Shown: positions 935 to 32,104, counted from the stretch's first letter. The stretch: DNA of 36,332 nt from a virus (IMGVR_UViG_2721755676_000006), one strand, 5' to 3'. Notes: a model not told the origin generated them from the letters alone. Numbers and translations are program-made.

Positions 935-2620
935 GTGAATATAAACGTCGCCGAATTGTTAAATGGGAATTACATTCTGTTATTATTTGTGGTCCTCGCG
1001 CTTGGGCTATGTCTCGGAAAGTTACGACTTGGTTCGATCCAACTGGGTAATTCCATTGGCGTTTTAGTCGTATCGCTGTTATTAGGCCAACAACATTTCA
1101 GCATTAACACCGATGCGCTTAATCTTGGCTTTATGCTGTTTATTTTCTGCGTCGGGGTCGAAGCCGGACCGAACTTTTTTTCCATTTTTTTTCGCGATGG
1201 GAAAAATTACCTAATGTTAGCACTGGTGATGGTTGGCAGTGCGCTGGTGATCGCCTTAGGGTTAGGTAAGCTGTTTGGCTGGGATATTGGCCTGACGGCC
1301 GGTATGTTAGCAGGCTCTATGACGTCGACACCGGTTCTGGTCGGTGCTGGCGATACACTGCGTCATTCCGGCATGGAAAGCAGGCAGCTCTCACTGGCAC
1401 TGGATAATCTGAGCCTCGGGTATGCCTTAACCTATTTAATCGGTCTGGTGAGTTTGATTGTTGGTGCGCGTTACTTGCCGAAATTGCAGCATCAGGACTT
1501 ACAGACCAGCGCCCAGCAAATCGCCCGCGAACGTGGCCTGGACACTGATGCCAACCGTAAGGTTTATTTACCGGTGATCCGCGCCTATCGCGTCGGCCCG
1601 GAGCTGGTGGCCTGGACCGACGGCAAAAATCTGCGTGAACTGGGTATTTATCGACAAACCGGCTGCTACATTGAACGTATTCGACGTAACGGGATTCTGG
1701 CAAATCCAGACGGTGATGCCGTGCTACAAATGGGCGATGAAATAGCGTTGGTAGGCTATCCCGACGCCCATGCCCGACTCGATCCCAGCTTCCGTAACGG
1801 TAAAGAAGTTTTCGATCGTGACCTTCTCGACATGCGTATCGTCACTGAAGAAGTGGTCGTTAAAAACCATAACGCTGTAGGTAAACGTCTCGCACAACTG
1901 AAGTTGACCGATCACGGTTGCTTCCTTAACCGCGTCATTCGTAGCCAGATTGAGATGCCGATAGATGACAACGTCGTGCTTAACAAAGGTGACGTTTTAC
2001 AAGTCAGCGGTGATGCCCGTCGCGTAAAAACCATCGCCGATCGCATCGGCTTTATCTCGATTCACAGCCAGGTCACTGACCTGCTGGCATTTTGCGCCTT
2101 CTTTGTTATTGGGCTGATGATCGGGATGATCACCTTCCAGTTCAGCACATTCAGTTTCGGCATGGGGAACGCTGCCGGGTTGTTATTCGCCGGAATTATG
2201 CTGGGCTTTATGCGTGCTAACCACCCGACCTTCGGTTACATTCCGCAAGGTGCATTAAGCATGGTGAAAGAGTTCGGCTTGATGGTGTTTATGGCAGGCG
2301 TTGGTCTGAGCGCCGGTAGCGGTATTAATAACGGCCTGGGCGCGATTGGCGGTCAGATGTTGATTGCCGGATTAATTGTCAGTCTTGTGCCCGTGGTTAT
2401 CTGTTTCTTGTTCGGTGCTTATGTATTGCGAATGAACCGCGCACTGTTGTTCGGCGCAATGATGGGCGCACGCACCTGCGCGCCGGCAATGGAGATCATC
2501 AGTGATACAGCTCGCAGTAACATCCCTGCGCTGGGCTACGCGGGCACCTACGCAATCGCCAACGTCCTGCTGACGCTGGCAGGGACAATCATCGTCATGG
2601 TATGGCCAGGATTAGGATAA
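935..2620 (+). CDS. ybjL: putative AAE-family transporter YbjL (two membrane domains flanking TrkA-C-like soluble domains; GTG start)
   Basis: 561-aa ORF with hydrophobic N- and C-terminal halves and a central soluble region; chromosomal context. Confidence 0.85.
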
Positions 2621-3164: not shown

Positions 3165-4265
3165 TCATTCCATTTCGAAATCATCAATCCTCACTTCAAG
3201 CTCCAGACTGGTCGTAAAACCGTTATCCGGGCTGACGGTATGCGTCAGAGTCGTAATGGTCCATTCCGCATCATCTATCGGCTGTTTAAAACCACTGACC
3301 TTCACAGGCATTTCCGTGTAGAGATCTGCCCGCCCTTCTGCCAGTTGTAGCGAAAATGACGCAACGCCGCGTTGCAGGCGTTCCCACTGCATTTTCGCCG
3401 CTCGTTCGGCGTTGCTCCGGTTGGCATAAGTGCGATTAAGTACCAGCACGTTTTCATCCGTACCCACCAGGTAATCGCCCTGCTTCGCTTCTGGCTCTTT
3501 CTTCTGCTTCTTAGTTCTGCGCTTACGCTTCACCGTGGTGCTTTCTTTCTTCGCAGGTTCGCGGGTATGCAACCAGCTGGCAATTACGCCCGTGTAGGCT
3601 CCGCGATCTGCCAGGGTAAATCGGTGACTGTCGCCGTCCTTGCGTGTGATAGTGATCACTGGCAGAGGTTTACCAGTGGCGCTTTTGCCCTGCCCCTGCC
3701 GGATGAATAACAGATTGCCATTTTTCACCGACGCGATGGCACCGTACTGTCGCGCCAGCCGCATCAGAAAACTGCCGTCACTCTCATTAGTCTGGTCTAT
3801 ATGCTCCACGGGCTTATCCGACAGGTCTTTACCCAGTGCCATCTTCAGCTTGTGCCGCGCGGCTATTTCCTTCACCACTTCCCCGACGGTGGTCTTATGC
3901 CACGATTTTTCACGGCGGGTATTCAGCGTTTCCCGAAAATCAGCACTTCGCGCCCGGATAGTCAGGCGGTCCGGTGCGCCAGTGTGTTCAATCTCGTCCA
4001 CCGTGAATGTCCCTTTCGGGAAAAGCGGCTGCCCCTTCCAGCCCAGCGCCAGCGTAATGACCGCACCACGGCGCGGCAGCACGATTTTTCCGTCGGCGTC
4101 GTCCAGCTCCAGATCAAGCTGGTCCGCGTCAAAGCCCCGATTGTCCGTCAACGTCAGACTCATCAGACGGTTATCCAGCACAGTAGTGATATCCCTGCCC
4201 TCAATACTGATGCTGAATGCGGGAGTTTTGTTGCCTTTGTTAAGCAGTTCAGAGCTGAAATTCAC
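3165..4265 (-). CDS. D: tail protein D (late control gene D family); GTG start with GGGAGGG RBS
   Basis: 366-aa ORF with P2 gpD-like blocks (RLMSLTLTDNRGF, WKG, FLMRLARQYGA); position between ogr and U. Confidence 0.85.
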   Translation of the reverse strand: MNFSSELLNKGNKTPAFSISIEGRDITTVLDNRLMSLTLTDNRGFDADQLDLELDDADGKIVLPRRGAVITLALGWKGQPLFPKGTFTVDEIEHTGAPDRLTIRARSADFRETLNTRREKSWHKTTVGEVVKEIAARHKLKMALGKDLSDKPVEHIDQTNESDGSFLMRLARQYGAIASVKNGNLLFIRQGQGKSATGKPLPVITITRKDGDSHRFTLADRGAYTGVIASWLHTREPAKKESTTVKRKRRTKKQKKEPEAKQGDYLVGTDENVLVLNRTYANRSNAERAAKMQWERLQRGVASFSLQLAEGRADLYTEMPVKVSGFKQPIDDAEWTITTLTHTVSPDNGFTTSLELEVRIDDFEME

Positions 4266-4747
4266 GACAGCAGCCCTCCCACCGTTTTACTGATATCACT
4301 TAAGGCAGATGTTGCCGTGTCCTGCAGATTATTCAGTTGCGTACTGAGATCACCGAACATATCGGACAGGGATTCATCCACCCGTTTGAGCGACAGGGTG
4401 AACTCAATCCGGCGCGGCATACCATCGCGGAAAAACTCCGTTTTAGTCTGATTCAGTCCCTCAATCACATACATGCCATAAATCGTGCCGCTGCCTTCAA
4501 TCAGGGGCCATGCTTTCCCCTGTTCTGCCATCTGCTCCAGTGCCAGCAACGACAGCCTGCCGCCTGTTATCTCCGGCATAAGAACACCAGAAAGCGTCAG
4601 CATGTCGTTGTCCGGTCCCAGAAACTGCGTGGACGGACGACGATTTACCCGACTGTTTGCCGCATGTCGCCAGCTGCGTTGATACTGCAGCTCCTGATAC
4701 GGTACGGTGCGCAGCATAAACACGTACAATCCCAGCACCATCATCAT
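4262..4747 (-). CDS. U: tail protein U
   Basis: 161-aa ORF starting MMMVLGLYVF..., P2 gpU-like; stop overlaps D start, start overlaps T stop (ATGA). Confidence 0.85.
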   Translation of the reverse strand: MMMVLGLYVFMLRTVPYQELQYQRSWRHAANSRVNRRPSTQFLGPDNDMLTLSGVLMPEITGGRLSLLALEQMAEQGKAWPLIEGSGTIYGMYVIEGLNQTKTEFFRDGMPRRIEFTLSLKRVDESLSDMFGDLSTQLNNLQDTATSALSDISKTVGGLLS

Positions 4748-7700
4748 GCGTCGTATCCCCCCTGATCGCTGTAGTTACTCCTGGCTTTTGCCTTCAGCCT
4801 GCGTTCACGTTCATCAAGCTGGCGTGCCACCTCCCGCGCAATATCCTGCGCACTTTGTCCTGGCTGCGTCTGGATGATGATCTGCGTCGGTGCCTCAATC
4901 CGGTGAACGGGCGGCACAGCAGCTGCGCGACTCACCATCGCTTCACCGCCTTTCGCGGGAAGTGCCAAAGGATGCAACGGTGGAAGCTCTGCTGGCGCGG
5001 CAGCAACGCCCATCATTCCGGCGACAACCGCAGCCAGTGCAGCGGTATTTCTCCGGCTGGTCACGTTTGCCGGACCGTTGACAATTTCCGGCCCGTTTTC
5101 ACCGACAATGCCGAACTGCCCGCGCGGGATATACCCGCCGCTGTCATACATCCCCGCAAAGCCATATCCCCATGACGGAAAACCACCCGATGGCATTATC
5201 ACTTTACCGTCTGCATTCACCGTCGCAAGTTGCTGACGCGTCACGCTTTCCGGCAGTTTCGCTTTTGCAGCCTCTTTACTGACAATGCCGAGTTTCTCCA
5301 GCAACCAGGAAACGCCGGATTTCAGGGAGTCCAGCGGATGCATGACCATATTCAGCCCTTCCGCCAGTGCCTCTCCGAATCGCCGCCCCATTGCCGCTGC
5401 ACTCTGCAGTTCGGCAGAGGTCGACTTAACGGGCGTCAGCAGATCAGTAAACCAGCCCCACAGCGCCTGTACTTTGTCGCCAATCCACTGAAACACAGGC
5501 TTAAGTGGTTCGAATGCTGCACTGATGGGACCTGCCGCCGCTTTGAATCCTTCCACCACACCAGCGAGAAATGCGGTGATGGGTTGCCAGTATTTCCAGA
5601 CAACCAGCGCCACGCCCGCCAGTGCAGTAACCACAAGACCTATCGGACTGAGCAGAGCACCTAACAGACCAGATATGGCATACAGGGCAACGCGCAGCAT
5701 CGCCAGCGGACCGGATGCCAGTACTCGCAGCACCGCGCCTGCGGCAGCCAGTCCACCGCGTAGTGCTGCCAGTGGATTCATAAACATCACAGCAACAGCA
5801 CGTAAACCGGATAATCCAGACCGCAACAGTGCAACCGGCACACCTGCTACAGTTTTCAGGACATTCCCCGTCAGTGATGCCGTGCGGCGCAAAGACGACA
5901 ACGGCGCAGTAAGTAAACCCGCTGCGTTGCCCGATGAAGCAAGCCCGCGTCGCAGCAGTGCCAGTGGAGTGCCAGCTAACCAGGACAACGCGCTGCTGGT
6001 TCGTGTTACTGCTGCCGTAACGGAAGGTAACGTTTTGATACCCAGCACAGAGAATCCCAGACGGATGACTGCCAGCGGCCCCAGCACTGCAGCCAGCGCC
6101 ACCGCTAAGGTGCCGAGGCCTAGGGTAACCGCAGCCACAACAGCCGCTACTTTCATCAGTGTGCCTGTCAGTTCCGGGTTAGCTTCCACCCAGCGGCGCA
6201 ACGCCCCCGTGATGCTTTTCACCGTGTACAGAATATCCATCAGCGGCTGGCGCAGCGTTTCGCCCAGGCTGCTGAAGGTATTCTGTGCAGTGGTTTTGAC
6301 CAGCAACCACTGCGCAGAAAGTGAATCCTTGTTAATGTCGGATTCTTTCTGCATGGAGCCGAGCGCATCATTGCCCGCTGTCAGTTTTAGCTGGCGCTGT
6401 AGTTCCGGCAGGTTGTTTGCCAGTTTCGCCGCGTCATCGCCAAACTCTTTACCAAACAACATAGTCATGGCAGACAGACGCTTGTCCTGCGGCAGTGCGT
6501 TCACCTTCTCCAGCACACGCTGGATAGTTCCCATCGCATCCTTCGTCATCTGCTTTTCAATCACTTCAGGATTGAGTTTCAGCAGATTCATCCCTTCAAA
6601 GAAACTCTTGCTCTGCATGGTGGCAATGGACAATTCACGCACCATCGCGTTTGCTGCACTGGCTGCAACCTCCGGCGCAGCTCCCAGTGTCAGGAAGGTG
6701 GAACCCAGCGCCGCCGCTTTACGATAATCCAGACGGTCAGCCACACCGCCCAGGCGTTGCATCACATCAATGATGTCCGCCCCTTTCGACATGGCGTTAT
6801 CATCCAGATAGTTCAGCGCATCACCGAGCTGTTCAATATTGCGGGTAGGGATTTTGTAGAGCTGAGCGATTTTCCCCAGACTTTCTGACAGTTCATCCGC
6901 TGGCAGCTCAAAGGCTGTTGCCGCCTTTGCTGCTGTGCTGGCGAAGGCCAGCAGGTCACGTTTCTGGTCTTCCCAGCTGTCGTCAGGGTTTGCGACGTTC
7001 ATGCGCGCCCCACCTTCAACCAGTGCGGCGAAGTCCACCGCACCGTTTTCCATCGGCAGCTGTTCGCTGGCAGCCTTGATGGCATCCTGCATTTCATAAA
7101 AACGTGCAGTACGGTTTCCATTATCGTCACGCAGACCATTGACCTGCTTTGCCACACCTTTCATGGCATCTTCCATGCTGGTATAGCTTTTTACTGCCGC
7201 CATCACTGGCGTCCCCATTGCCAGCCCTGCAGCCGTGGTAGTGGCTCCGGCTCCTGCAATACGATCGCGCACCTCCAGCGAACGGGCATAACTGGCACGC
7301 GCCGCATTCATCCTGCGCTGAGCTTCACCCAGTCGCTTCAGCCGCGCCTCCTGTTTCGACAATTCCTGGTTATAACGTGATGTTTCACGGGCTAAACGGG
7401 CAGTTGCTCCCGCATCATCTTTCGCAGAAATTCCCGCCCGGTACAGTTCTGCACGCACAAGCGCCGTTTGCTTCTGCAAATATTTTTGTTGTTCTTCCAG
7501 GCGTTGGACTGCCAGCGTTTGCCGACCTAAAGCCACAAGGTGCCGTTGTGATGGTTGTTCCATCGCCTCCAGCTCAGAGCTAAGCAAATTAGCCTTCTGT
7601 CTGGCATAGTTCAGCCTGTCGCCTAACTTCTTGTTATCGGCCTGCAGCTTGCGAAATTTTTCCAGGCTGTTACCCGCCTGATTGAGTTGCTTTAATGCGT

Positions 7701-7821
7701 CACGGGAGTTTCTGATTGCGCCAGCCAGCTCTTTCGAACTGGCCTGTGCAGCACGGAATGGGCGGGTGAGTTTGTCAACCGCATTAAGAATGACCTGCAG
7801 CCGCAGGTTATTATTACTCAT
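4744..7821 (-). CDS. T: tail tape measure protein
   Basis: 1025-aa Ala/Leu-rich ORF with coiled-coil N-terminus and Gly/Ala-rich hydrophobic middle; position downstream of E/E'. Confidence 0.9.
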   Translation of the reverse strand: MSNNNLRLQVILNAVDKLTRPFRAAQASSKELAGAIRNSRDALKQLNQAGNSLEKFRKLQADNKKLGDRLNYARQKANLLSSELEAMEQPSQRHLVALGRQTLAVQRLEEQQKYLQKQTALVRAELYRAGISAKDDAGATARLARETSRYNQELSKQEARLKRLGEAQRRMNAARASYARSLEVRDRIAGAGATTTAAGLAMGTPVMAAVKSYTSMEDAMKGVAKQVNGLRDDNGNRTARFYEMQDAIKAASEQLPMENGAVDFAALVEGGARMNVANPDDSWEDQKRDLLAFASTAAKAATAFELPADELSESLGKIAQLYKIPTRNIEQLGDALNYLDDNAMSKGADIIDVMQRLGGVADRLDYRKAAALGSTFLTLGAAPEVAASAANAMVRELSIATMQSKSFFEGMNLLKLNPEVIEKQMTKDAMGTIQRVLEKVNALPQDKRLSAMTMLFGKEFGDDAAKLANNLPELQRQLKLTAGNDALGSMQKESDINKDSLSAQWLLVKTTAQNTFSSLGETLRQPLMDILYTVKSITGALRRWVEANPELTGTLMKVAAVVAAVTLGLGTLAVALAAVLGPLAVIRLGFSVLGIKTLPSVTAAVTRTSSALSWLAGTPLALLRRGLASSGNAAGLLTAPLSSLRRTASLTGNVLKTVAGVPVALLRSGLSGLRAVAVMFMNPLAALRGGLAAAGAVLRVLASGPLAMLRVALYAISGLLGALLSPIGLVVTALAGVALVVWKYWQPITAFLAGVVEGFKAAAGPISAAFEPLKPVFQWIGDKVQALWGWFTDLLTPVKSTSAELQSAAAMGRRFGEALAEGLNMVMHPLDSLKSGVSWLLEKLGIVSKEAAKAKLPESVTRQQLATVNADGKVIMPSGGFPSWGYGFAGMYDSGGYIPRGQFGIVGENGPEIVNGPANVTSRRNTAALAAVVAGMMGVAAAPAELPPLHPLALPAKGGEAMVSRAAAVPPVHRIEAPTQIIIQTQPGQSAQDIAREVARQLDERERRLKAKARSNYSDQGGYDA

Positions 7822-8250
7822 CGTTGGCCCCGCTTCTCTGAATCGCTTTATACCGCCATTCCAGCACTTCGGTCAGCGGCATAACGTCAGTAACGGATGG
7901 CGGCCAGTGAAAAATGGTGGCGATATCTGCCACCAGATCGTCAACCGTCAGGCTGTCGGTAAACCGGCAAGCACCGACTTCTTCAACAAAAAAGTGACAA
8001 CCTCAACCGACATGGCAGTGAGATCTGCCGGGTCCATCTCTGCAATTTCCTGTGCAGTCAGTACCGGACTGGAGATGCGGGGGATCACGGTCATCATCGC
8101 GTTCACATCCATATCCATAATGGCCTGCAGGCGTGTACCGCGCAGCGCACCGGACTGCGGTTTACGCAGCACAATTTCGGTAATTTCTGTTTTACCGCGC
8201 TTGATAGGGGTATCCAGTTGAATGGTCTTTTCAGTCTGCTTATCGCTCAT
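7814..8250 (-). CDS. E': tail assembly chaperone E+E' made by programmed -1 ribosomal frameshift
   Basis: Slippery heptamer T_TTT_TTG in the E frame at 7987-7993 (minus strand); the -1 frame is open for 58 codons to TAA at 7814-7816, overlapping the T start codon. Confidence 0.65.
7948..8250 (-). CDS. E: tail assembly chaperone E (zero-frame product)
   Basis: 100-aa ORF directly upstream of T, equivalent to P2 gpE / lambda G. Confidence 0.8.
   Translation of the reverse strand: MSDKQTEKTIQLDTPIKRGKTEITEIVLRKPQSGALRGTRLQAIMDMDVNAMMTVIPRISSPVLTAQEIAEMDPADLTAMSVEVVTFLLKKSVLAGLPTA
7987..7993 (-). other. programmed -1 frameshift slippery site TTTTTTG
   Basis: Read directly: minus-strand codons ACT TTT TTG in the E frame; downstream -1 frame has no stop until 7814. 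Confidence 0.6.
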
Positions 8251-8304
8251 TTTGTTGTCCTGTAAATTGGGTTCTGGCGCGGTATCCCGCGCCGTTCAGA
8301 TAGA

Positions 8305-8820
8305 TCAGAGGCCGAGGGCGTTGCGGTGCGCTTCCATCAGGTCTACACCGTCCACAATCTCCACCATGTTGATAAGGTCCACTTCATAGAGCACCTCACC
8401 ATTGATGGTCAGCTTCGCGTAGCTGTTGGTACTGGTCACTTTGGTGGTGTTGCTTTCGCCCGTCTTCCACTCGCCGGAATCCACTTCTTTGTGACGTCCA
8501 CGCACCACAAGCTCCACAGCCTGCACTTCCCCGGTATCGTCACGCTGGATAGAGCCGGTAAAGCGCAGCTGGATGCCATCCACCGTGGCTTTGCCCATCT
8601 GCTTAAACAGCAGCAGTTCAGTACCACCAATGGAAAATTCTGTATCCAGTGCACTGTCATCCAGTCCCAGATCCACATCCACCGCCCCCGGCATTCCGCC
8701 ACCGCGATACTTCTCATATTTGCGGGTGAATTTCGGCAGCGTCAGCGACTCAACGATCCCCTGCCAGTTGTTCCCGTCGTTAAACAGGTTCAGGTGTTTT
8801 AATTTGCGTGGTAAAGCCAT
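8305..8820 (-). CDS. FII: major tail tube protein
   Basis: 171-aa ORF, P2 FII-like, immediately downstream of the sheath gene. Confidence 0.88.
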   Translation of the reverse strand: MALPRKLKHLNLFNDGNNWQGIVESLTLPKFTRKYEKYRGGGMPGAVDVDLGLDDSALDTEFSIGGTELLLFKQMGKATVDGIQLRFTGSIQRDDTGEVQAVELVVRGRHKEVDSGEWKTGESNTTKVTSTNSYAKLTINGEVLYEVDLINMVEIVDGVDLMEAHRNALGL

Positions 8821-8829: not shown

Positions 8830-10002
8830 TTACGCGCTGACCTGGCTGGCAAAATTCACCAGGTACTGATCGGTGATGCGCTGGCGCAGCATCAGATTTT
8901 CAAGTGGCGGCACTGGCGTGTAGTCATAGTCGATGGTGAGTTTTCCGGCTTTCAGCGTGTCTTTGTCGTTCACCGACTCATCCAGCCAGCAATCACCACC
9001 AATGAGATAGCCTTGACTGACCAGGCTGCGCATTTTGGCGCGGATACCTTCGATAATGTCGCGGGCCAGCGACGGGTTAAGCGGTTTATCCACCGCCCAC
9101 ATGTGTGCTTCTGCCATCGTGTCCATCAGCACCTGCGCCGTGCGGGTGTAGTTTTCGAAGGCAAAGAGCGGGTCATCACTCAGGCAGCGGGAACCCCAGA
9201 AGCGGAAACCGTCTTTACGCACAAGTGTGGTGACGTCGTTCTGGTTCAGCAGACCTGCATCGGTTGCCGGGTCCTGCAGATCCCAGAACACATCTGCAGA
9301 AATTCCGGTGACACCGTTCACGCCCACGTTGGACAGGCTTTTGTGCCATCCGGTCTGCTCGTCAATTTTGGCGCGCAGACCAAGCGCACGGGCGGTGGCA
9401 TATGCCGTTGCTTCGGCATTCAGCACCGTGTCCCAGCCAGTAAAGTCAGGCCAGATCAGCATCCCTTCGCGCTGGCTGAAGTTTTCACGGTAAGTGATCG
9501 CCTCCTGTACCGTCTTGCAGCCATACGCTGACAGGTAAGCAAATCCACGCAGGCTTTGCGCCACGCTCAGCAACTCAGTAGCTACCGCCTTGGTGTCGTG
9601 GCCTGGCACGCCGAGAATGCGCGGTTTAACGCCGAGCTGAGCCTGTGCAGATAACAGGGCTTTCATACCTGTTTTTTTACCTTCAGCAGTCACTGCGCCG
9701 ATGATATTGGTCGTGGTTTCGTCTTCCGTTTCACCCTGCGGCACACGCACAACAACGGTCACGGGTTTTGCCTGGTCAGCGATGGCATCCAGCGAACGAG
9801 CCAGCGTGCCTGACTCACCCGCTTTACCGCTGGCAGTCAGCACATCAGTGATCAGCACGGGTTTATTAAGAGGAAACATTTTTGCATCGGCATCATCGCC
9901 CGTGCAGACCATACCCACGATGGCGGTGCTCACCGTGGTAATGGATCGGGTGCCTTCGTTGACTTCAACAACGCGCACCCCGTGGTGGTAATCCTGAGCC
10001 AT
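8830..10002 (-). CDS. FI: contractile tail sheath protein
   Basis: 390-aa ORF, P2 FI-like; ATG at 10002 preceded by AGGAGG. Confidence 0.9.
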
Positions 10003-10144: not shown

Positions 10145-10711
10145 TCAGGGGGATTCATTGCTCTTATTTGCCGGAAATTTTCTATAAATGGTAGAAACGC
10201 CTACATCAAAAATCAGTGCAATACGCTGTCTTGATTCTCCGGCCTCGAGTAAACGTCCAATCTGTGCCCACTGTTCAGTGGTCAACTTAGGACGGCGTCC
10301 ACCTACTCTGCCTTTGGCACGAGCTGCAGCCAGCCCTGCCCTGGTACGTTCAACTATCAGTTCGCGTTCCATTTCAGCCAGGGCCCCCATGACATGAAAA
10401 AAGAAACGGCCCATTGGGGTGCTGGTATCAATACTGTCAGTCAGGCTTCGGAAATTCACGCCACGCTGACGCAACTCTTCTATCAGCGTAACAAGATGCC
10501 GCATACTGCGCCCCAACCTGTCTAGCTTCCAGACAACCAGCGTGTCTCCTGCCGATAGTGTCCTGAGCAGTTTTTTCAGCCCCGGTCTGTCGGACTTAGT
10601 GCCACTGATTTTATCCTCAAAAATCCGCTCACATCCCGCGCAGTTCAGTGCATTACGTTGCAAATCGGTGTTCTGGTCATTTGTTGACACGCGTACATAG
10701 CCAATAAGCAT
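10145..10711 (-). CDS. serine DNA invertase (Hin/Gin/Pin/Cin family)
   Basis: 188-aa ORF with N-terminal resolvase catalytic motif (YVRVSTNDQ), C-terminal HTH (GVSTIYRKF); adjacent to the tail-fibre genes. Confidence 0.9.
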   Translation of the reverse strand: MLIGYVRVSTNDQNTDLQRNALNCAGCERIFEDKISGTKSDRPGLKKLLRTLSAGDTLVVWKLDRLGRSMRHLVTLIEELRQRGVNFRSLTDSIDTSTPMGRFFFHVMGALAEMERELIVERTRAGLAAARAKGRVGGRRPKLTTEQWAQIGRLLEAGESRQRIALIFDVGVSTIYRKFPANKSNESP

Positions 10712-10766
10712 GATTATCCCCCTGACTAAAAACCGGGGATGATGCCAGTTAGCTGTTACCTCTGCA

Positions 10767-11306: not shown

Positions 11307-11880
11307 TATCAGGCGCGGTGCTGGTATCTGTTGCCGTCACCGCGTCAATGTAATCCAGCACGGCGTTAAGCCGGGTTGTTTCTGCCTGCATCAGCTTCCG
11401 TCCGGCCTGTAATTTCAGCTGAATCAGACTGATGGAAGCCATTGCAGCATCAATCAGTGACTGACGCTGTGCTTCTGCCGTGTCTACTGCGGCGCTATGC
11501 TGTGCCTCAGTATCGGTCACCCATTTCTCACCATCCCATTTATCGTATGGTGTTAACGGGGCGATAGTTGTGGTATTTTCAGGGTAATCACCCGGAGCTG
11601 TGATTTCTTTTGACTCTCCCGTTTTGGTGCTATAGACGATTTCACCGCGATGGTCTGGCACATATTCCCATGAGTTAAAATTTGCAGAACGACAGATAGC
11701 ATAACCCACCTTATATGTGCCAGGGGCATCTAAACAGGAATATGCAGGAATACCGACACCAATGGCAAGATATTCAGTTGAAGCTGAAATATATTCCTGC
11801 GTCTCACTATCATAGTTATAAACGGTAATATCCCCCGACTTTGTAGCAATAAGCTCACTATTTAATATTGCTTTATCCAT
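11275..11880 (-). CDS. G: tail-fibre assembly protein (Tfa, P2 gpG / lambda Tfa family)
   Basis: 201-aa ORF ending ..DTSTAPDIIWPAFPETD, the conserved Tfa C-terminal signature; start overlaps H stop (TAATG). Confidence 0.85.
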   Translation of the reverse strand: MDKAILNSELIATKSGDITVYNYDSETQEYISASTEYLAIGVGIPAYSCLDAPGTYKVGYAICRSANFNSWEYVPDHRGEIVYSTKTGESKEITAPGDYPENTTTIAPLTPYDKWDGEKWVTDTEAQHSAAVDTAEAQRQSLIDAAMASISLIQLKLQAGRKLMQAETTRLNAVLDYIDAVTATDTSTAPDIIWPAFPETD

Positions 11881-13424
11881 TATGCTGCTCTCACGATATA
11901 GTTAAATGCAATGTTTCGAGGGCGATTCTCTGATGCTGTTGGTACAACCCTGGATGCATCAAAACTGAATCCTGTGTAAGGGGTATTTTTTGTTTCATAT
12001 GTGCCTAGGTTATTATAGATATTTCGCGTAGCTTGAGATGCTAAGGCAAAAGCACCAGTACCAGTCTGTAACCTGAAAGTTGCTGAATCAATGGTGCCTT
12101 TAACTTCATTTATAAAGCCTGTTATATTCCGAATGGTATCTCCCTGTGACGAAAGCAAGCTACGGTTAGTATCAATCCCTCTTCCATCATCCCAGCCACG
12201 AATAAACTCACCGCGTAAATCAGGCAATTTATTTGTCGGGTAAACCTTTGCCAGTTCCGGGTATTCTTCAGCAGAAAAAGCCGCCCCGTTGCATTTCAGC
12301 CAGCCTGTTGGCGGAGTGGCGGAAGGCCACGGAACAGGCACGCCAACGGGTAATGCCGAACCTTCTCCCAAACCAAGGTATGTGAGAAGACCAGCTACAT
12401 CCTTTCCACTCAAATTAGTCAGCGTATTGTCCAGCGGTTGTTTACCTGCCAGCGCATTAAGCATTGTCGTGGCAAAGTTCGGATCATTCCCCAGTGCCGC
12501 CGCCAGTTCGTTCAGTGTATCCAGTGCCGCAGGTGCAGAACCCACCATTCCTGCAATCGCCGATTTCACAAAAGCCGTAGTGGCAATCTGTGTATTATTG
12601 ACCGACTGCGCCGCCGTAGGGGCTGTTGGCGTTCCGGTGAGTGCCGGACTCGACAGCGGCGCTTTCAGTGCCAGCGCATTGTTAATGGTGGTACTGAATT
12701 TCGGATCATTGTTAATGGCTACGGCTATTTCTTTCAGCGTGTCCAGCGTGGCTGGCGCACCATTAATAAGAGCCGTCAGTGCCGCCTGAACAAATGCGGT
12801 GGTCGCAAGCTGCGTGGTATTATTCCCCGCCGCTGGCGTTGGCGCTTTGGGGGTTCCGGTAAACGTTGGACTTTCTTTGGGTGCATACTGTGAATGCGGG
12901 TCCGGCGCGGCAAGATGTTTTGCCATCAGGTCATCCACGTACACCTTCAGCTCCAGTGCCTTGTCATCCACATACTTGCGGGTTGCCAGCACTACAGCAG
13001 GGTCGATTTTCAGGGTGATATTGTCCGTGCTGCTGGTAATCAGCACCATGCGCACGGTCTGGGTACGCCCGCTGCCTTCAGCCAGTTGCGGCTTATAGCT
13101 TTCCGGGCAGTTGCCCACGGCAATCAATGCCCCGGACTCATCAAACAGGCCCACTTCACGTATCCACCAACCGCCCTCGTTTTCAGGGATCACCTGTTCG
13201 GCAATAATCTGGCTGCTGTTCTGCGGGTCGATATAGAGCATATTCAGCGCAGCCCGGCGTTTCTCATTTACCAATGCTGTCTGCTTTGCGTCCGGCGTTG
13301 GCAATGTTCCGCCGCCATCGCCGACCGCCATATGGGTAATTTTTAAAGGCACACCGAGCGCGGCGGCGCTGGCAAGTTTCGCCGCGCCAATATCCGTCAG
13401 CAGGGTATAAAATTTTGTGCTCAT
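11880..13424 (-). CDS. H: tail fibre protein (current orientation)
   Basis: 514-aa ORF with conserved N-terminal attachment region and variable C-terminus; crossover site A lies at about codon 350. Confidence 0.9.
   Translation of the reverse strand: MSTKFYTLLTDIGAAKLASAAALGVPLKITHMAVGDGGGTLPTPDAKQTALVNEKRRAALNMLYIDPQNSSQIIAEQVIPENEGGWWIREVGLFDESGALIAVGNCPESYKPQLAEGSGRTQTVRMVLITSSTDNITLKIDPAVVLATRKYVDDKALELKVYVDDLMAKHLAAPDPHSQYAPKESPTFTGTPKAPTPAAGNNTTQLATTAFVQAALTALINGAPATLDTLKEIAVAINNDPKFSTTINNALALKAPLSSPALTGTPTAPTAAQSVNNTQIATTAFVKSAIAGMVGSAPAALDTLNELAAALGNDPNFATTMLNALAGKQPLDNTLTNLSGKDVAGLLTYLGLGEGSALPVGVPVPWPSATPPTGWLKCNGAAFSAEEYPELAKVYPTNKLPDLRGEFIRGWDDGRGIDTNRSLLSSQGDTIRNITGFINEVKGTIDSATFRLQTGTGAFALASQATRNIYNNLGTYETKNTPYTGFSFDASRVVPTASENRPRNIAFNYIVRAA
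12363..12388. repeat. invertase crossover site A inside gene H
   Basis: TTCTCCCAAACC-AA-GGTATGTGAGAA, an imperfect palindrome; first 14 bp identical to the reverse complement of site B. Confidence 0.7.
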
Positions 13425-19815: not shown

Positions 19816-20874
19816 TTACGCTCCGGTTTCTGCTGCGACGGCGCTGAAGTCGCCAATCTGGATGTTTTCCACCAGTGCGGCGCAGCGGTAGTCCTCAACC
19901 ACATAGGCTTCGTTAACGGATTCAAAGTTTTCAATCCGGTCACGTTTCGGGTTGTCGATAACTGAACGACGGCGAGTGTCTTCCTGCCAGTAGATGGACA
20001 GGTTATCCAGACGGGTGATCAGCAGCGCATTCGGCGGGAAGAACGGCGCACGCACTGCCTGCAGGCCACCCATGCGTTTTTGGCTGATGATCATATCTGC
20101 AGCCAGTTTTTCACTGTTCTCCTGCTCTTTGTTGACCAGCGGGAAATACTTGTCAGACAACAGTTCACGACCGCAAATCACCACCAGATCGTCATCGTCC
20201 TGGTAAACCACGTCGATAAGCTCATTGACGGCATCCATCACCACGGCATCCAGGTTGGCATATTCGCCACCTTTGCCGACTTTCACTGCGCCCGGTGTGG
20301 TTTCACCGCCCGTGGTGGTGCTGCCCATGACGTGATCCGGTGCATCCTCACGGATTTTCTGCAGCCAGCCTTTATTTACATCCTGCAGCAGCGGGTTTTC
20401 GCTACGGTTGGAGGTTTTCGCACGCTTCACGCCGTTAAAACCGATCATGATGCGGTCCAGTGCCTGACGTTTCACGATGGCATCACGGATGCGCACCTGG
20501 AAATCCTGAAACTTCGCCCACAGGTCCAGCTTCGCGTAGGTCAGTACCGTGTCAAAGTTGGTCTGCTCGCATTTATATTCCACATCGACCATCAGCGTCG
20601 GATCGACAGGCTCACGCTCTTTTGCGGTGGTATCAGTGGTTCCGGCAATGGTGCTGCCAACACCCAGCCCCAGCAACTGACCAGACTGCTCAGTCACTGG
20701 CGTGACGTTAATCAGCGTCAGGAATGCGGCGGATTGCTGGATCTGGTCTTCCAGCGTCTGCTGCACGGACGGCTCCACAGTGAACTTGCTGGACAGTTCT
20801 TCAACTGCCACACCGTTCAGACGCGCCAGCTGCTGCAGGTAAGCGTTAAAAGCAAAGCGGGTATTCTTCTTCAT
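19816..20874 (-). CDS. N: major capsid protein N
   Basis: 352-aa ORF, P2 gpN-like. Confidence 0.9.
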   Translation of the reverse strand: MKKNTRFAFNAYLQQLARLNGVAVEELSSKFTVEPSVQQTLEDQIQQSAAFLTLINVTPVTEQSGQLLGLGVGSTIAGTTDTTAKEREPVDPTLMVDVEYKCEQTNFDTVLTYAKLDLWAKFQDFQVRIRDAIVKRQALDRIMIGFNGVKRAKTSNRSENPLLQDVNKGWLQKIREDAPDHVMGSTTTGGETTPGAVKVGKGGEYANLDAVVMDAVNELIDVVYQDDDDLVVICGRELLSDKYFPLVNKEQENSEKLAADMIISQKRMGGLQAVRAPFFPPNALLITRLDNLSIYWQEDTRRRSVIDNPKRDRIENFESVNEAYVVEDYRCAALVENIQIGDFSAVAAETGA

Positions 20875-20890
20875 CAGGTTTTGTGCTCCA

Positions 20891-21724
20891 TCAGCAATTT
20901 GTCAGAGTGTCAGCGGGGGCATTACCGCCTGTTGCACGCTGGCGGTAGTCCTGGCGGCTGTCTTCATGGCTCAGCTTGTCCACCAGTTCATTAAAGGTGG
21001 TCAGCTGTGCCTGCAGGGCTGTCTCCAGCTCAGACAGGCGTTCTTCCTGTTCAGACAGGGATTTTTCGGTGCGCGCACTCAGGTTTTGCTGCTCAGTGGC
21101 GACCAGCTCCACGGCCTTATGCACATCAGAGAACCGGGCATCATCGGACTGCTCTTTTTTGGTGAACAGCGCCGTGACACGGGCAAACAGGGATGGTTTT
21201 TCGTCCTGGACTTCTTCCAGTTCGATCACCGTTTCCTCTGCAGCGGTAAAGAGATTGGCGGGGTTCTGCTTGCGGTTTGCCAGCGGGTTATGGGCTGCAC
21301 TGGCGCTGAATGTCAGCATTTCAGTGCCCAGACTGGCAGGGTCATCAGTGGCAGCCAGGCCAACCAGGTAGGCTTTGCCCGTATCAGCAAACTTCGGGCT
21401 GACTTCCATAGAGGTGAATAATTTCTGGCCTTTTTTCACCAGCTCCACCAGGGACTCTGTTGGCTCAACGTCGGCATACAGCGCCATCTTGCCTGCCAGC
21501 GGACCTTCCGTGATTTCTTCAGCAAACAGCGCCGTCACCTTGCCGTAGCGGTTAAAGGTGCTGTCCGGCAGATAAGACTTGATGTGCTCAAGGTTAATCA
21601 GCGCGGTATACACCGCCGGGTTGTAGCTGGCTGCCATCTGTTCCAGCCATTCACGCTGGATTTCGCGTCCGTCGGTGGTGGCACCTTCCACCCCGATGCG
21701 AAAACGCTTTGCTTTCACTGTCAT
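20891..21724 (-). CDS. O: capsid scaffold protein O
   Basis: 277-aa acidic coiled-coil-rich ORF, P2 gpO-like; divergent from P. Confidence 0.85.
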   Translation of the reverse strand: MTVKAKRFRIGVEGATTDGREIQREWLEQMAASYNPAVYTALINLEHIKSYLPDSTFNRYGKVTALFAEEITEGPLAGKMALYADVEPTESLVELVKKGQKLFTSMEVSPKFADTGKAYLVGLAATDDPASLGTEMLTFSASAAHNPLANRKQNPANLFTAAEETVIELEEVQDEKPSLFARVTALFTKKEQSDDARFSDVHKAVELVATEQQNLSARTEKSLSEQEERLSELETALQAQLTTFNELVDKLSHEDSRQDYRQRATGGNAPADTLTNC

Positions 21725-21801
21725 GAGCCGTGCTCCGTTAGAAAAAACTTACTGGAGCCTTATGGTTGCGGTGATGGGGGCAGTGAAACAATGCGCGGTA
21801 T

Positions 21802-21821
21802 TTGTACCGACAACCACACAA
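21802..21821. promoter_or_regulatory. candidate Ogr-dependent late promoter dyad in the O/P divergent intergenic region
   Basis: TTGTACCGACAACCACACAA, same architecture as the FI and V elements; about 80 bp upstream of O. Confidence 0.4.
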
Positions 21822-21866
21822 ACCGCAGGCGGGGAAAGCCTTCATTCAAGGCTGTAGGTTTGTGCC

Positions 21867-23633
21867 ATGAACACCACACTGACACCCGCAGATCTCGATC
21901 CCCGTCGGCAAGCCATGCTGCTGTACTTTCAGGGATACCGCGTAGCCCGCATTGCTGAAATGCTGGGCGAGAAAGTTGCAACCGTTCACAGCTGGAAAAA
22001 ACGCGACAAGTGGGGTGACTATGGGCCGCTGGATCAGATGCAGCTCACCACCGCCGCACGTTACTGCCAGCTCATTATGAAGGAGCACAAAGAAGGGAAA
22101 GATTTCAAAGAAATTGATCTGCTGGCGCGCCAGTCGGAGCGCCACGCGCGGATCGGCAAGTTTAACAATGGCGGCAACGAAGCCGATTTAAACCCTAACG
22201 TCGCCAACCGCAACAAAGGCCCGCGCCGTCAGCCTGAAAAGAATGTTTTCACCGATGAACAGATTGAGAAGCTGGAAGAAATCTTCCATTCCTCCATGTT
22301 CAACTACCAGCGTCACTGGTGGGAAGCCGGAAAAACCAACCGCATCCGCAACCTGCTGAAGTCACGCCAGATCGGCGCAACCTTCTATTTTGCCCGTGAA
22401 GCCCTGATTGACGCCCTGCTAACCGGACGTAACCAGATTTTCCTTTCTGCCAGTAAGGCACAGGCGCACGTCTTTAAGCAGTACATCATCGACTTCGCCA
22501 AAGAAGTGGAGGTGGAGCTGAAAGGCGATCCGATGGTGCTTCCCAACGGGGCCACACTGTATTTCCTCGGCACCAATGCCCGCACGGCCCAGAGTTATCA
22601 CGGTAACCTGTATCTGGATGAATATTTCTGGATACCGAAATTCCAGGAGCTGCGCAAAGTGGCATCCGGTATGGCTATTCACAAAAAATGGCGACAAACC
22701 TATTTTTCCACGCCATCCAGCCTGACACACAGTGCTTATCCGTTCTGGTCCGGTGCGCTGTTCAACCGTGGGCGCAACAAAGCCGATAAGGTGGACATCG
22801 ACCTGTCCCACAGCAATCTGGCCCCCGGCCTGCTGTGCGCAGACGGGCAATACCGCCAGATAGTCACCGTAGAAGATGCGGTGCGCGGCGGCTGTAACCT
22901 GTTCGACCTTGACCAGTTGCGCATGGAATACAGCCCGGACGAATACCAGAACCTGCTGATGTGTGAGTTCGTGGACGATCTCGCGTCCGTGTTCCCGCTC
23001 AGCGAGCTGCAGGCGTGTATGGTGGACAGTTGGGAAGTCTGGACCGACTTTCATGCACTGGCCCTGCGCCCGTTTGGCTGGCGCGAAGTGTGGATCGGTT
23101 ATGACCCGGCAAAAGGTACGCAGAACGGCGACAGCGCCGGATGCGTGGTGGTGGCACCGCCAGCCGTGCCGGGCGGTAAGTTCCGCATTCTTGAGCGTCA
23201 CCAGTGGCGCGGAATGGACTTCCGCGCCCAGGCTGACGCCATCAAAAAACTGACCGAACAGTATAACGTGACCTATATCGGTATCGACTCGACCGGCGTC
23301 GGTCACGGGGTTTACGAGAACGTGAAAGCGTTTTTTCCTGCCGTCAGGGAGTTTGTCTATAACCCCAACGTTAAAAACGCCCTGGTACTCAAGGCCTACG
23401 ACATTATCAGCCACCGCCGTCTGGAGTTTGACGCCGGGCACACCGACATTGCGCAGTCATTTATGGCAATCCGTCGCGCTACCACTGCCAGTGGCAACCG
23501 CCCGACCTATGAAGCCAGCCGCAGCGAAGAAGCCAGCCATGCCGATCTGGCCTGGGCAACAATGCACGCACTGTTTAACGAACCGCTGCAGGGCGAGTCC
23601 GCCAATACCAGCAATATTGTGGAGATTTTTTGA
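21867..23633 (+). CDS. P: terminase large (ATPase) subunit P
   Basis: 588-aa ORF, P2 gpP-like. Confidence 0.9.
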   Translation: MNTTLTPADLDPRRQAMLLYFQGYRVARIAEMLGEKVATVHSWKKRDKWGDYGPLDQMQLTTAARYCQLIMKEHKEGKDFKEIDLLARQSERHARIGKFNNGGNEADLNPNVANRNKGPRRQPEKNVFTDEQIEKLEEIFHSSMFNYQRHWWEAGKTNRIRNLLKSRQIGATFYFAREALIDALLTGRNQIFLSASKAQAHVFKQYIIDFAKEVEVELKGDPMVLPNGATLYFLGTNARTAQSYHGNLYLDEYFWIPKFQELRKVASGMAIHKKWRQTYFSTPSSLTHSAYPFWSGALFNRGRNKADKVDIDLSHSNLAPGLLCADGQYRQIVTVEDAVRGGCNLFDLDQLRMEYSPDEYQNLLMCEFVDDLASVFPLSELQACMVDSWEVWTDFHALALRPFGWREVWIGYDPAKGTQNGDSAGCVVVAPPAVPGGKFRILERHQWRGMDFRAQADAIKKLTEQYNVTYIGIDSTGVGHGVYENVKAFFPAVREFVYNPNVKNALVLKAYDIISHRRLEFDAGHTDIAQSFMAIRRATTASGNRPTYEASRSEEASHADLAWATMHALFNEPLQGESANTSNIVEIF

Positions 23634-27013: not shown

Positions 27014-27595
27014 ATGAAAGTCAACATAAAACAGATTGTTGGAAATTGGGAATTAGGTCTTGCGATGGATAAACACAGCATCCGCAGCATTCCCATTGGT
27101 TACGATGAGTGGGGACATATGCGGTTTGAGACGGAGCGTACTGAGGTAGGCGAATCTCTTTTCCAGCTTAAATACCGTGACGATTGGTCACAAGTTAAGC
27201 CTTTAGCCCAATGCCTAGCAGAGCATGCCTTTCCTCATTTCAGCAATGTCGGGTTTATCGTTCCAATGGCTGCATCTAATCAGCGTGCACGCCAGCCAGT
27301 GACCGAAATAGCTCAGGAACTAGCCAAACTAGTTGGCAAACCATGCTTCGATGACCTCTTGTTGAAAGCCCCCGGCGGGGCATCGCTAAAGAACCTGAAT
27401 ACAAAAGAAGAGAAAATCACGGCGCTGGGTAATTCGTTCTCTGTTAATGACAGTATTGAGAATAATGGCAACTGGAATGTCCTTATCATTGACGACCTCT
27501 ACCATACAGGCGCATCTATGGAGGCTGCTTGTGCTGTGCTAAACGATTATACTAAGGTTAGAAGCATTTATGTTGCAGCTTTGACTTGGAGATAG
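27014..27595 (+). CDS. phosphoribosyltransferase (PRTase)-like protein
   Basis: 193-aa ORF with PRPP-binding-loop-like motif VLIIDDLYHTGASM near the C-terminus; AT-rich. Confidence 0.55.
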   Translation: MKVNIKQIVGNWELGLAMDKHSIRSIPIGYDEWGHMRFETERTEVGESLFQLKYRDDWSQVKPLAQCLAEHAFPHFSNVGFIVPMAASNQRARQPVTEIAQELAKLVGKPCFDDLLLKAPGGASLKNLNTKEEKITALGNSFSVNDSIENNGNWNVLIIDDLYHTGASMEAACAVLNDYTKVRSIYVAALTWR

Positions 27596-27597
27596 TG

Positions 27598-31250: not shown

Positions 31251-32104
31251 GCACGTACTCCGTACACGGCAGAACTATCCACGCCACGCGAATAATCAAA
31301 TCCCATCCAGCAGCGCGGCCCGGAAACAGCAATGATTTCTGTTGCTGATTTACCCTCGCCAGCTGCCACACCGATGCTGCGTTTTACCTTGATATAGTGG
31401 TGAGTAAAATTGCGATACAGCGAACGGATCAGGGATGTGTCACTGTTAGAAACAATGACTGGATGTCCTTCTGATGACCGATGTTCAAGAACGGATGCCA
31501 GGTGATACTGGTCATCTTCAGTGAAACCATCAGTGTGATAGCCGGAAAACGTACCGTCATACGGCGGATCGCAATACACCACATCTCCCGCCTTCAACAT
31601 CGCCAGCGTTTCATCAAAGCTGGCGCAGATAAACGTTGCTCGCTGGGCTTTTTCTGCAAATGTGCGAAGTTCTTTTTCAGGGAAATACGGATTTTTATAA
31701 TTACCGTAGGGGATGTTGAAATGCCCGCTCTTGTTATAGCGACATAAACCACGGTAACCGTGACGATTAAGATACAGGAAATATACCGCTTTCATGAAAT
31801 CAGTAATTTCAGTTGAGCAGTTAAACTCCTGCCTTATGTTGTAATAAGCCACCTCCCTGTTTGCGATCTCAAATAAAACTCTGGCGCGAGATATAAACGA
31901 TTCACAATCAGCGGCAACCTTTTTATAGAGGTTGATTAAATCAGGATTAATATCCGCAACCAGATAGCTGGGATAATCCGTTTCCATCATCACAGCACAG
32001 GAACCCGCGAAAGGTTCAACCAGTCGCGGGCCAGCAGGAAGGTATTTTTTCAGTTCTGGCATAATGGCGGTTTTATTTCCCGCCCATTTCAGGATGGTGT
32101 TCAT
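31247..32104 (-). CDS. dam: DNA adenine methyltransferase (Dam-like)
   Basis: ATG at 32104 with GGAGGTG RBS; N-terminal KWAGNK and catalytic DPPY motifs. Confidence 0.85.

What the first reader, a model, noticed from the sequence alone, without database searches (positions are those of the whole stretch)
7814..8250. Programmed -1 frameshift producing the E+E' tail chaperone
The canonical slippery heptamer T_TTT_TTG sits in the E frame 12 codons before the E stop. The -1 frame then stays open for 58 codons and terminates at a TAA overlapping the ATG of tape-measure gene T. This reproduces the conserved G/GT-type arrangement and supports the E and T calls.
Basis: partly seen in the sequence, partly recalled or inferred. 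Interest (0 to 1): 0.4.

Follow-up and report, generated by a model that had tools for sequence, protein, structure and literature searches.

The report
Known P2-type tail chaperone frameshift
This is the well-known programmed -1 ribosomal frameshift that lets P2-like phages make two tail-assembly chaperones (E and the longer E+E') from one start codon; it is genuinely present in this prophage, but it is ordinary and already described.

Summary
On the minus strand, gene E (8250..7948, 100 aa) carries T_TTT_TTG in its own frame at 7993..7987. Twelve sense codons follow before the E stop. The -1 frame is then open for 57 sense codons to TAA 7816..7814, inside the first 8 nt of tape-measure gene T (ATG 7821).

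The raw pattern alone is not beyond chance: the window holds 24 copies of the heptamer and 53 in-frame slippery heptamers, and about 9% of -1 frames are open that long. The comparative evidence is decisive:
- The E part matches Pfam Phage_TAC_7.
- The -1 extension matches Pfam Phage_P2_GpE (2.6e-18).
- The fusion aligns end to end with P2 E+E' (49% identity), straight through the shift site.
- The P2 reference record annotates this -1 frameshift at the same heptamer.
- All 80 related loci from different species keep an in-frame T_TTT_TT(G/A) and an open, conserved -1 frame that ends at or close to the predicted T start where one was found (74 of 80).
- The E'-only zone is under purifying selection in the -1 frame.

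No conserved downstream RNA structure was found. A Shine-Dalgarno-like element upstream is enriched across the family but is weak in this window.

Verdict: already known, low interest. The only practical point is that RefSeq splits E' off as a separate 39-aa gene.

The parts
7948..8250 (-). Gene E, the tail assembly chaperone made by standard decoding (100 aa, stop TGA 7950..7948).
   Evidence: ORF. Pfam PF10109 Phage_TAC_7, E = 1.1e-18. 42% identity to P2 gpE.
7987..7993 (-). Slippery heptamer T_TTT_TTG in the E zero frame (ACT TTT TTG).
   Evidence: It is identical to the P2 shift site (the P2 record marks the frameshift site). An in-frame T_TTT_TT(G/A) is present in all 77 unique related loci.
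7814..7987 (-). E' reading frame (-1 relative to E): 57 sense codons plus TAA 7816..7814. It is translated only as a C-terminal extension of E residues 1-88, giving E+E' of 145 aa, i.e. join(8250..7987, 7987..7814).
   Evidence: Pfam PF06528 Phage_P2_GpE, E = 2.6e-18, on fusion residues 107-143. Alignment to P2 E+E'. dN/dS of 0.07-0.26, with variable sites 12/5/26 by codon position of the E' frame.
7948..7986 (-). Dual-coding overlap: the last 12 codons plus stop of E, and the first 13 codons of the E' linker.
   Evidence: Nucleotide variability is reduced here: 28% of sites vary against 51% upstream, among 18 relatives.
8000..8004 (-). Shine-Dalgarno-like GAGGU, 7 nt (counted from GAGG) upstream of the heptamer. 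It is a candidate weak upstream stimulator; this is inferred, not shown.
   Evidence: Anti-SD duplex of -10.3 kcal/mol, in the 4th percentile of the windows of its own 3.5-kb stretch. However, 36% of synonymous variants pair as well. At family level the element is enriched.
4744..7821 (-). Gene T, the tape measure protein (1025 aa). Its start overlaps the end of E' by 8 nt (ATGAGTAA).
   Evidence: TIGR01760, E = 1.3e-92. PF10145.
8305..8820 (-). Gene FII, the tail tube protein, immediately upstream of E.
   Evidence: PF04985, E = 8.8e-60. TIGR01611.

Best explanation
This is the E/E+E' tail assembly chaperone pair of a P2-like (Peduoviridae, Elveevirus-type) prophage, expressed through a programmed -1 ribosomal frameshift.

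Proposed mechanism:
- Most ribosomes translate E to its stop and make the 100-aa chaperone.
- A minority slip back one base when tRNA-Phe sits on UUU (7992..7990) in the P site and tRNA-Leu sits on UUG (7989..7987) in the A site. The tRNAs re-pair on UUU UUU, and the ribosome continues at GUU (7987).
- The result is a 145-aa protein made of E residues 1-88 plus a 57-residue E' domain.

By analogy with lambda G/GT, the shared E part would bind the tape measure T and the E' domain would recruit the tail tube protein, so the frameshift rate would fix the E:E+E' ratio needed for tail assembly.

What is shown here: the sequence anatomy, homology to P2 E and E', conservation of the site and the frame, and selection on the -1 frame.

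What is inferred: that the shift occurs in this phage, its rate (roughly 10% in P2, from my own recollection of Christie et al. 2002; PMC5009743 says 2-3 fold above lambda), and the binding roles.
For: - Anatomy.
- Gene order FI-FII-E-T-U-D with family matches.
- PF06528 is found only in the frameshift fusion.
- The P2 reference record NC_001895 annotates E+E' as 'shares amino terminus with gpE; -1 frameshift; essential tail protein' and marks the shift site at the same heptamer.
- The fusion is 49% identical to P2 E+E'. This includes the linker right after the slip (V89, E91, G93, A94, F97, L101, VDDL), which lies upstream of any possible internal start.
- All 80 loci from different species (gamma-, beta- and alpha-proteobacteria) have an in-frame T_TTT_TT(G/A) 6-23 codons before the E stop. 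Each also has a 54-76 codon -1 ORF carrying the ADIAxIFHWPPS...WR motif, and the most common ending is 8 nt into T.
- The -1 frame is never closed between the heptamer and the conserved E' domain. In 30 of 77 unique loci a -1-frame stop lies only 2-3 codons upstream of the heptamer, so the frame opens at the site.
- In the E'-only zone, dN/dS is 0.07-0.26 and third-position variation dominates in the -1 frame. The other two frames contain stops.
- Other phage records annotate the same joined CDS (Burkholderia phage Mana, Escherichia phage Midge).
- Literature: PMC3091744 (P2 shifts at TTTTTTG, giving E of 91 aa and E+E' of 142 aa; the site is conserved in P2-like phages; no hairpin). PMC5009743 (the G/GT mechanism; higher efficiency in P2).
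Against: - No experiment exists for this particular phage.
- U_UUU_UUG is not listed among the efficient heptamers in E. coli reporter tests (PMC4066793).
- No downstream stimulatory structure is supported.
- The upstream SD-like element is weak in this window, so the efficiency here is uncertain.
- RefSeq and several phage records annotate E' as an independent 39-aa CDS.
Confidence: 0.92

Rival explanations
1. E' is an independent small gene (39 aa, GTG 7933 to TAA 7814), translated from its own start, as RefSeq/PGAP and some phage records annotate it. On this reading no frameshift is needed.
For: RefSeq annotates 'GpE family phage tail protein' at the equivalent of 7933..7814, and phage Cartapus does the same. 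ATG or GTG occupies this position in 70 of 77 unique loci. The Pfam GpE model covers only this part.
Against: - Six of 77 loci have ATT, ATA, ATC or GCA at that position.
- The 16-24 codon linker between the heptamer and that codon is always open in the -1 frame and is conserved at protein level between this phage and P2.
- The heptamer is invariant in 81 of 81 loci.
- Pairing to the anti-SD upstream of GTG 7933 is poor and discontinuous, at -5.9 kcal/mol. The argument is weak, because E's own start has only -4.0.
- In P2, E' was shown to be made as a frameshift extension of gpE (P2 record; PMC3091744).
Confidence: 0.04
2. The same fusion arises from transcriptional slippage. RNA polymerase would add one extra U in the T6 run, so a subset of mRNAs carries E and E' in one frame.
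For: The site is a homopolymeric run of six T. A +1U transcript gives a 145-aa product that differs from the ribosomal product at one residue only (TFF|VEE instead of TFL|VEE) (and the sequence itself). Sequence analysis alone cannot exclude it.
Against: - A six-base run is short for efficient slippage by E. coli RNA polymerase (from my own knowledge; usually 8-9 or more are needed).
- The conserved feature is the in-frame register T_TTT_TTR, with the third codon position restricted to G/A, not merely a T run.
- The homologous P2 event is described as a translational frameshift (PMC3091744, PMC5009743).
Confidence: 0.03
3. A chance coincidence of a heptamer with an open -1 frame, with no function.
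For: The heptamer is common in the window (24 copies). About 9% of -1 frames are open for at least 57 codons.
Against: The Pfam match of the -1 frame has E = 2.6e-18. The feature is conserved in 80 of 80 loci. The -1 frame is under purifying selection.
Confidence: 0.005

Closest known systems
Bacteriophage P2 genes E and E+E' (FETUD tail operon; Christie et al. 2002, cited in PMC3091744 and PMC5009743; NC_001895 P2p25/P2p26)
   Same: Same position between FII and T, same heptamer T_TTT_TTG in the same register, and same direction of shift (-1). Both protein parts are homologous (49% identity over the fusion). The 8-nt overlap of E' with the T start is the same.
   Different: E is 100 aa here against 91 aa in P2, because the E-specific tail after the heptamer is 12 codons instead of 6. 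The fusion is 145 aa against 142 aa. T is longer (1025 aa here; the P2 T CDS spans 19850..22297, about 815 aa). The host phage belongs to the Elveevirus-type lineage and carries a Gin-like invertase.
Elveevirus phages (Klebsiella phage 4LV2017, Escherichia phage Cartapus) and their E. coli prophage copies
   Same: 97-99.9% nucleotide identity over 7700..8400. The anatomy is identical.
   Different: None of substance. Those records annotate E' as a separate small CDS rather than as a joined frameshift product.
Phage lambda G / GT tail assembly chaperones (Levin et al. 1993; Xu et al. 2004, 2013, 2014, as cited in PMC5009743)
   Same: Same logic and gene position. Two products share an N-terminus, and the longer one is made by a -1 shift near the end of the gene that precedes the tape measure gene. 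The ratio is set by frameshift efficiency, and neither product is in the virion.
   Different: No detectable sequence similarity. The heptamer differs (G_GGA_AAG in lambda, from my own knowledge). Lambda has a non-contractile tail. P2-type efficiency is reported to be 2-3 fold higher (PMC5009743).
E. coli dnaX -1 frameshift signal (A_AAA_AAG, with an upstream SD and a downstream hairpin)
   Same: A -1 tandem slip on a homopolymer-rich heptamer. An SD-like element lies a few nucleotides upstream in most family members.
   Different: No supported downstream hairpin. The product here is longer, not shorter, than the zero-frame product. The role of the SD-like element is untested and it is weak in this window.

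Membership tests
P2-type E / E+E' frameshifted tail assembly chaperone (Peduoviridae) | The gene lies between the tail tube gene (FII) and the tape measure gene (T) in an FI-FII-E-T-U-D operon. | tested here: met
   ORFs and family matches for FI, FII, T, U and D flank E on the minus strand.
P2-type E / E+E' frameshifted tail assembly chaperone (Peduoviridae) | The zero-frame product is homologous to P2 gpE. | tested here: met
   PF10109, E = 1.1e-18. 42% identity to P2 gpE. tblastn hits to P2 and 424 phage records.
P2-type E / E+E' frameshifted tail assembly chaperone (Peduoviridae) | The slippery heptamer T_TTT_TTG sits in the zero-frame register near the 3' end of E. | tested here: met
   It lies at 7993..7987 in register ACT TTT TTG. 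The motif and register are the same as in P2.
P2-type E / E+E' frameshifted tail assembly chaperone (Peduoviridae) | The -1 frame is open from the heptamer, is homologous to P2 E', and ends at the start of T. | tested here: met
   57 codons. PF06528, E = 2.6e-18. The alignment to P2 E+E' continues through the junction. The ORF ends 8 nt into T.
P2-type E / E+E' frameshifted tail assembly chaperone (Peduoviridae) | The fusion protein is actually produced by ribosomal -1 frameshifting (about 10% in P2) and is essential for tail assembly. | not testable with these tools
   This needs a reporter assay, mass spectrometry or genetics. It has been shown only for P2 (annotation; PMC3091744, PMC5009743).
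Lambda G/GT-type conserved tail chaperone frameshift (Xu, Hendrix and Duda 2004 class) | Two overlapping ORFs lie between the major tail protein gene and the tape measure gene, joined by a slippery site, and the longer product shares its N-terminus with the shorter one. | tested here: met
   This is membership of the functional class only; there is no sequence homology to lambda G or T.
dnaX-like stimulated -1 frameshift signal | A stable hairpin or pseudoknot 5-9 nt downstream that stimulates the shift. | tested here: not met
   - z-scores are -0.15 (60 nt), -1.55 (107 nt) and -1.66 (42 nt).
- No compensatory pairs in 20 relatives.
- The family mean z is -0.32.
- No Rfam match.
dnaX-like stimulated -1 frameshift signal | An internal Shine-Dalgarno-like sequence 6-17 nt upstream of the heptamer. 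| tested here: inconclusive
   GAGGU lies 7 nt upstream with a -10.3 kcal/mol duplex, but 36% of synonymous variants do as well. Across the family, 84% of loci are in the top 5% of their own locus, and 10 of 15 clades show the element.

The most novel reading that the evidence does not exclude
The P2-family E/E' frameshift may rely on a conserved internal Shine-Dalgarno-like element a few nucleotides upstream of T_TTT_TTG, instead of a downstream structure. That would explain why a heptamer not listed among the efficient motifs in E. coli reporters (PMC4066793) gives a frameshift rate 2-3 fold above lambda's.

Across 77 unique loci, the 18 nt upstream pair with the 16S 3' tail better than 95% of windows of the same locus in 84% of cases. 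They also pair on average 4.7 kcal/mol better than synonymous recodings.

I found no description of this in the papers I could search, but the primary P2 paper was not available to me. In this particular window the element is weak.
Probability: 0.3. Interest if true: 0.3.

Novelty: already known. Interest (0 to 1): 0.1.

Why it matters
It matters mainly for annotation. RefSeq/PGAP and several phage records list E' as a free-standing 39-aa 'GpE family phage tail protein' (window 7933..7814). The biologically supported product is instead a 145-aa E+E' fusion made by ribosomal slippage. This stretch occurs in about 18% of complete E. coli genomes (998 of 5426), so the mis-annotation is widespread. 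The finding also confirms the E and T gene calls for this prophage. It opens no new biological question.

Tried and rejected
   - Folding 107, 60 and 42 nt after the heptamer gave z-scores of -1.55, -0.15 and -1.66.
   - The local hairpin 7978..7947 has no compensatory changes in 20 relatives, and its conservation is explained by dual coding.
   - The family-wide mean z is -0.32, and Rfam gives no match.
   - This agrees with the literature statement that P2 has no such structure (PMC3091744).

2. An alternative heptamer, G_GGT_TTT, in five loci. I considered using it to separate ribosomal from transcriptional slippage. Inspection showed those loci also contain the in-frame T_TTT_TTR one codon downstream, so it gives no discrimination.

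3. Other in-frame heptamers in the window with long -1 ORFs (for example A_AAA_AAG at 30356..30350). These sit in spurious ORFs that overlap real genes such as gene A in another frame.

4. The first viral-contig scan returned only relatives that were 99-100% identical over E and therefore uninformative. The genome-contig scan with a four-sequence alignment gave the diverse set.

5. PDB sequence search of the fusion gave no hit.

6. The primary paper PMC135442 is not held.

7. I did not run structure prediction or the large protein searches. The case was settled without them, and the alignment rows I had would not have been accepted.

8. Correction to my own first fusion model. One search wrote Phe-Phe at the junction. 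Under the standard tandem-slip model the A-site residue is the zero-frame Leu (TFL|VEEV). Phe-Phe would result from a P-site-only slip or from transcriptional slippage.

Full report
**Observation.**
All features below are on the minus strand.
- Gene E starts at ATG 8250 and ends at TGA 7950..7948, encoding 100 aa.
- Its codons 86-88 are ACT TTT TTG, so the heptamer T_TTT_TTG (7993..7987) is in the X_XXY_YYZ register of the E frame.
- Twelve sense codons follow before the E stop.
- The -1 frame read from 7987 (GTT GAA GAA ...) is open for 57 sense codons and ends at TAA 7816..7814.
- The tape-measure ORF starts at ATG 7821..7819, so the two ORFs overlap by 8 nt (ATGAGTAA). The TAA lies just after the ATG, not on it.

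**Is it more than chance?**
The pattern alone is not.
- The heptamer occurs 24 times in the window against 11.3 expected.
- There are 53 in-frame X_XXY_YYZ motifs in ORFs of at least 90 aa. Several are followed by longer -1 ORFs, all of them artefacts of spurious ORFs overlapping real genes.
- About 8.9% of -1 frames sampled along ORFs of at least 150 aa are open for at least 57 codons.

The case rests on homology and conservation.

**What it is.**
- The surrounding minus-strand genes are those of the P2 FETUD tail operon, in P2 order:
  - sheath FI, 8830..10002 (PF04984/PF17482);
  - tube FII, 8305..8820 (PF04985, TIGR01611);
  - E;
  - tape measure T, 4744..7821 (TIGR01760, E = 1.3e-92);
  - U, 4262..4747 (PF06995);
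  - D, 3165..4265 (PF05954).
- E matches PF10109 (Phage_TAC_7, 'tail assembly chaperone proteins E, or 41 or 14'), E = 1.1e-18.
- When the frameshift fusion is scanned, a second domain appears at residues 107-143: PF06528 'Phage P2 GpE', E = 2.6e-18.
- The nearest phages are Elveevirus members of the Peduoviridae (Klebsiella phage 4LV2017, Escherichia phage Cartapus), at 97-98% identity.
- The same stretch is found in 998 of 5426 complete E. coli genomes.

**Direct comparison with P2.**
- The P2 reference record annotates a joined CDS E+E' ('shares amino terminus with gpE; -1 frameshift; essential tail protein') and marks the shift site.
- The P2 site is GGT TTT TTG, the same heptamer in the same register. 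My reconstruction gives the known 142-aa product.
- The window's fusion aligns with it over its full length at 49% identity.
- Conservation continues straight through the junction and the following linker (V89, E91, G93, A94, F97, L101, V103-D-D-L106), and then through ADxAxIFHWPPS...LTE...WR.KA..RSG.
- By contrast, the zero-frame tails after the heptamer (LKKSVLAGLPTA here, SPNSVQ in P2) differ in length and sequence.

**Comparative test.**
A scan of one genome per species with a four-sequence E alignment returned 80 loci, from Enterobacterales, Pseudomonas, Acinetobacter, Halomonas, Burkholderia, Ralstonia and others. They were 35-98% identical to the window's E.
- Every one has an in-frame T_TTT_TT(G/A) 6-23 codons before the E stop. 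In five loci my first script reported the adjacent G_GGT_TTT, but the T_TTT_TTR is there too.
- Every one has a -1 ORF of 54-76 codons carrying the E' motif, most often ending 8 nt into the next long ORF.
- In the 77 unique sequences the -1 frame is never interrupted between the heptamer and the conserved E' domain, a linker of 16-24 codons.
- In 30 of the 77, a -1-frame stop lies only 2-3 codons upstream of the heptamer, so the frame opens at the shift site.
- Among 18 same-length relatives of the window, variable sites in the E'-only zone fall 12/5/26 on codon positions 1/2/3 of the -1 frame. Pairwise dN/dS is 0.07-0.26, and the other two frames contain stops.
- The 36-nt dual-coding zone is less variable than E upstream (28% against 51% variable sites).

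**Mechanism.**
- The best-supported reading is tandem -1 slippage. tRNA-Phe on UUU (P site) and tRNA-Leu on UUG (A site) re-pair on UUU UUU, and decoding resumes at GUU 7987.
- This gives E(1-88, ...VVTFL) plus VEEVGACRF...GANDE, 145 aa in total.
- My first reconstruction wrote Phe at position 88. That residue would arise from a P-site-only slip or from a +1U transcript. The length is the same either way, and the residue offers a way to tell the routes apart.
- The rate is not determinable here. PMC5009743 states that in P2 and relatives it is 2-3 fold higher than lambda's. My recollection of Christie et al. 2002 is about 10%.
- Function is inferred from lambda G/GT (PMC5009743): the shared part binds the tape measure, and the extension recruits the tube protein.

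**Stimulators.**
None is supported:
  - z = -1.55 for 107 nt, -0.15 for 60 nt, and -1.66 for the best local hairpin, which starts 8 nt after the heptamer at 7978..7947;
  - that hairpin shows no compensatory change in 20 relatives;
  - the family-wide mean z is -0.32, with 4% of loci below -2;
  - Rfam has no match;
  - Lynch et al. report the same absence for P2 and for Burkholderia P2-like phages (PMC3091744).
- Upstream, I noticed a Shine-Dalgarno-like element.
  - The 18 nt before the heptamer pair with the 16S 3' tail better than 95% of all windows of the same locus in 84% of 77 loci. In at least half of them no other window pairs as well.
  - The pairing is on average 4.7 kcal/mol better than synonymous recodings drawn from local codon usage.
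  - The signal is seen in 10 of 15 clades defined at 65% identity. In some clades (Acinetobacter, L119) the GGAGG sits further upstream and is encoded by different residues.
  - Sharma et al. use 6-17 nt upstream as the experimentally supported window for such stimulators, and do not list U_UUU_UUG among the efficient E. coli motifs (PMC4066793).
  - In this window the element is GAGGU (8004..8000), with GAGG 7 nt from the heptamer and a duplex of -10.3 kcal/mol. It is not distinctive, because 36% of synonymous variants do as well.
  - I treat it as a lead at family level, not as a finding for this locus.

**Rivals.**
- Independent initiation of E' at GTG 7933 is what RefSeq and Cartapus annotate. 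The evidence against it:
  - 6 of 77 loci have a non-start codon there;
  - the linker upstream of that codon is conserved and always open in the -1 frame;
  - the heptamer is invariant;
  - the P2 experiments show E' made as an extension of gpE.
  - The weak SD upstream of the GTG (-5.9 kcal/mol) carries little weight, because E's own SD is also weak (-4.0).
- Transcriptional slippage on the T6 run cannot be excluded from sequence. However, the run is short, and what is conserved is a codon register.
- Chance is excluded.

**Verdict.**
The observation and the interpretation are both correct. The feature is the textbook P2 E/E+E' frameshift in a common E. coli/Klebsiella prophage lineage. It is already known and of low interest. 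The practical note is that public annotation of this lineage usually splits the product.

Noticed in passing
window 10145-13424: A Gin/Cin-type serine DNA invertase (10145..10711 minus; PF00239 + HTH_7) sits next to the tail-fibre genes. 27-nt inverted repeats lie at 10767-10793 and 12362-12388 (81% complementary; TTCTCCCAAACCAAGG...). The second repeat is inside the 514-aa tail-fibre ORF (11880..13424). This looks like a Mu G-segment-type invertible host-range switch of about 1.6 kb, which P2 itself lacks. Cartapus annotates the homologous genes in the same way.
   Followed up: partly
window 24600-28800: A low-GC island (33-44% GC against about 55% for the phage) lies between the portal/terminase region and replication gene A. 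It holds five ORFs of 174-232 aa with no Pfam match. One of them (27014..27595 plus, 193 aa) weakly resembles the ShosT/PsyrT defence toxins in PADLOC (E = 1.3e-8 and 1.5e-7). This may be an anti-phage cargo hotspot of the kind known in P2-like prophages.
   Followed up: partly
window 7994-8011, and loci L086-L165 just upstream of the heptamer: A Shine-Dalgarno-like sequence lies immediately upstream of the E/E' slippery heptamer. It is enriched across the family: 84% of 77 loci are in the top 5% of their own locus, pairing is on average 4.7 kcal/mol stronger than synonymous recodings, and 10 of 15 clades show it. It is weak in this window. It may be a dnaX-like upstream stimulator. I could not establish whether this has been described before.
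   Followed up: partly
window 7814-7933 (minus): RefSeq/PGAP and several GenBank phage records annotate E' as a separate 39-aa 'GpE family phage tail protein' starting at a GTG, instead of as a ribosomal-slippage join with E. The same stretch is present in 998 of 5426 complete E. coli genomes.
   Followed up: yes
window 935-2620 and 35124-36332: The prophage ends appear to lie within the window. A host-type Asp-Al_Ex/TrkA_C permease gene (935..2620 plus) lies left of gene D. A tyrosine integrase (35124..36332 plus) sits at the right edge. A Dam-type D12 methyltransferase (31247..32191 minus) lies next to replication gene A (28830..31250 minus). The att sites were not mapped.
   Followed up: no
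loci L106, L107, L109, L145 (Chromohalobacter, Halomonas, Kushneria): In these halophile prophages the E' frame runs 75-76 codons, with an extra Arg/Ser/Ala-rich tail (…GARSQASG…RRR) beyond the usual end. For three of the four, my script found no long ORF start near the E' stop. This suggests a different junction with the tape measure gene.
   Followed up: no
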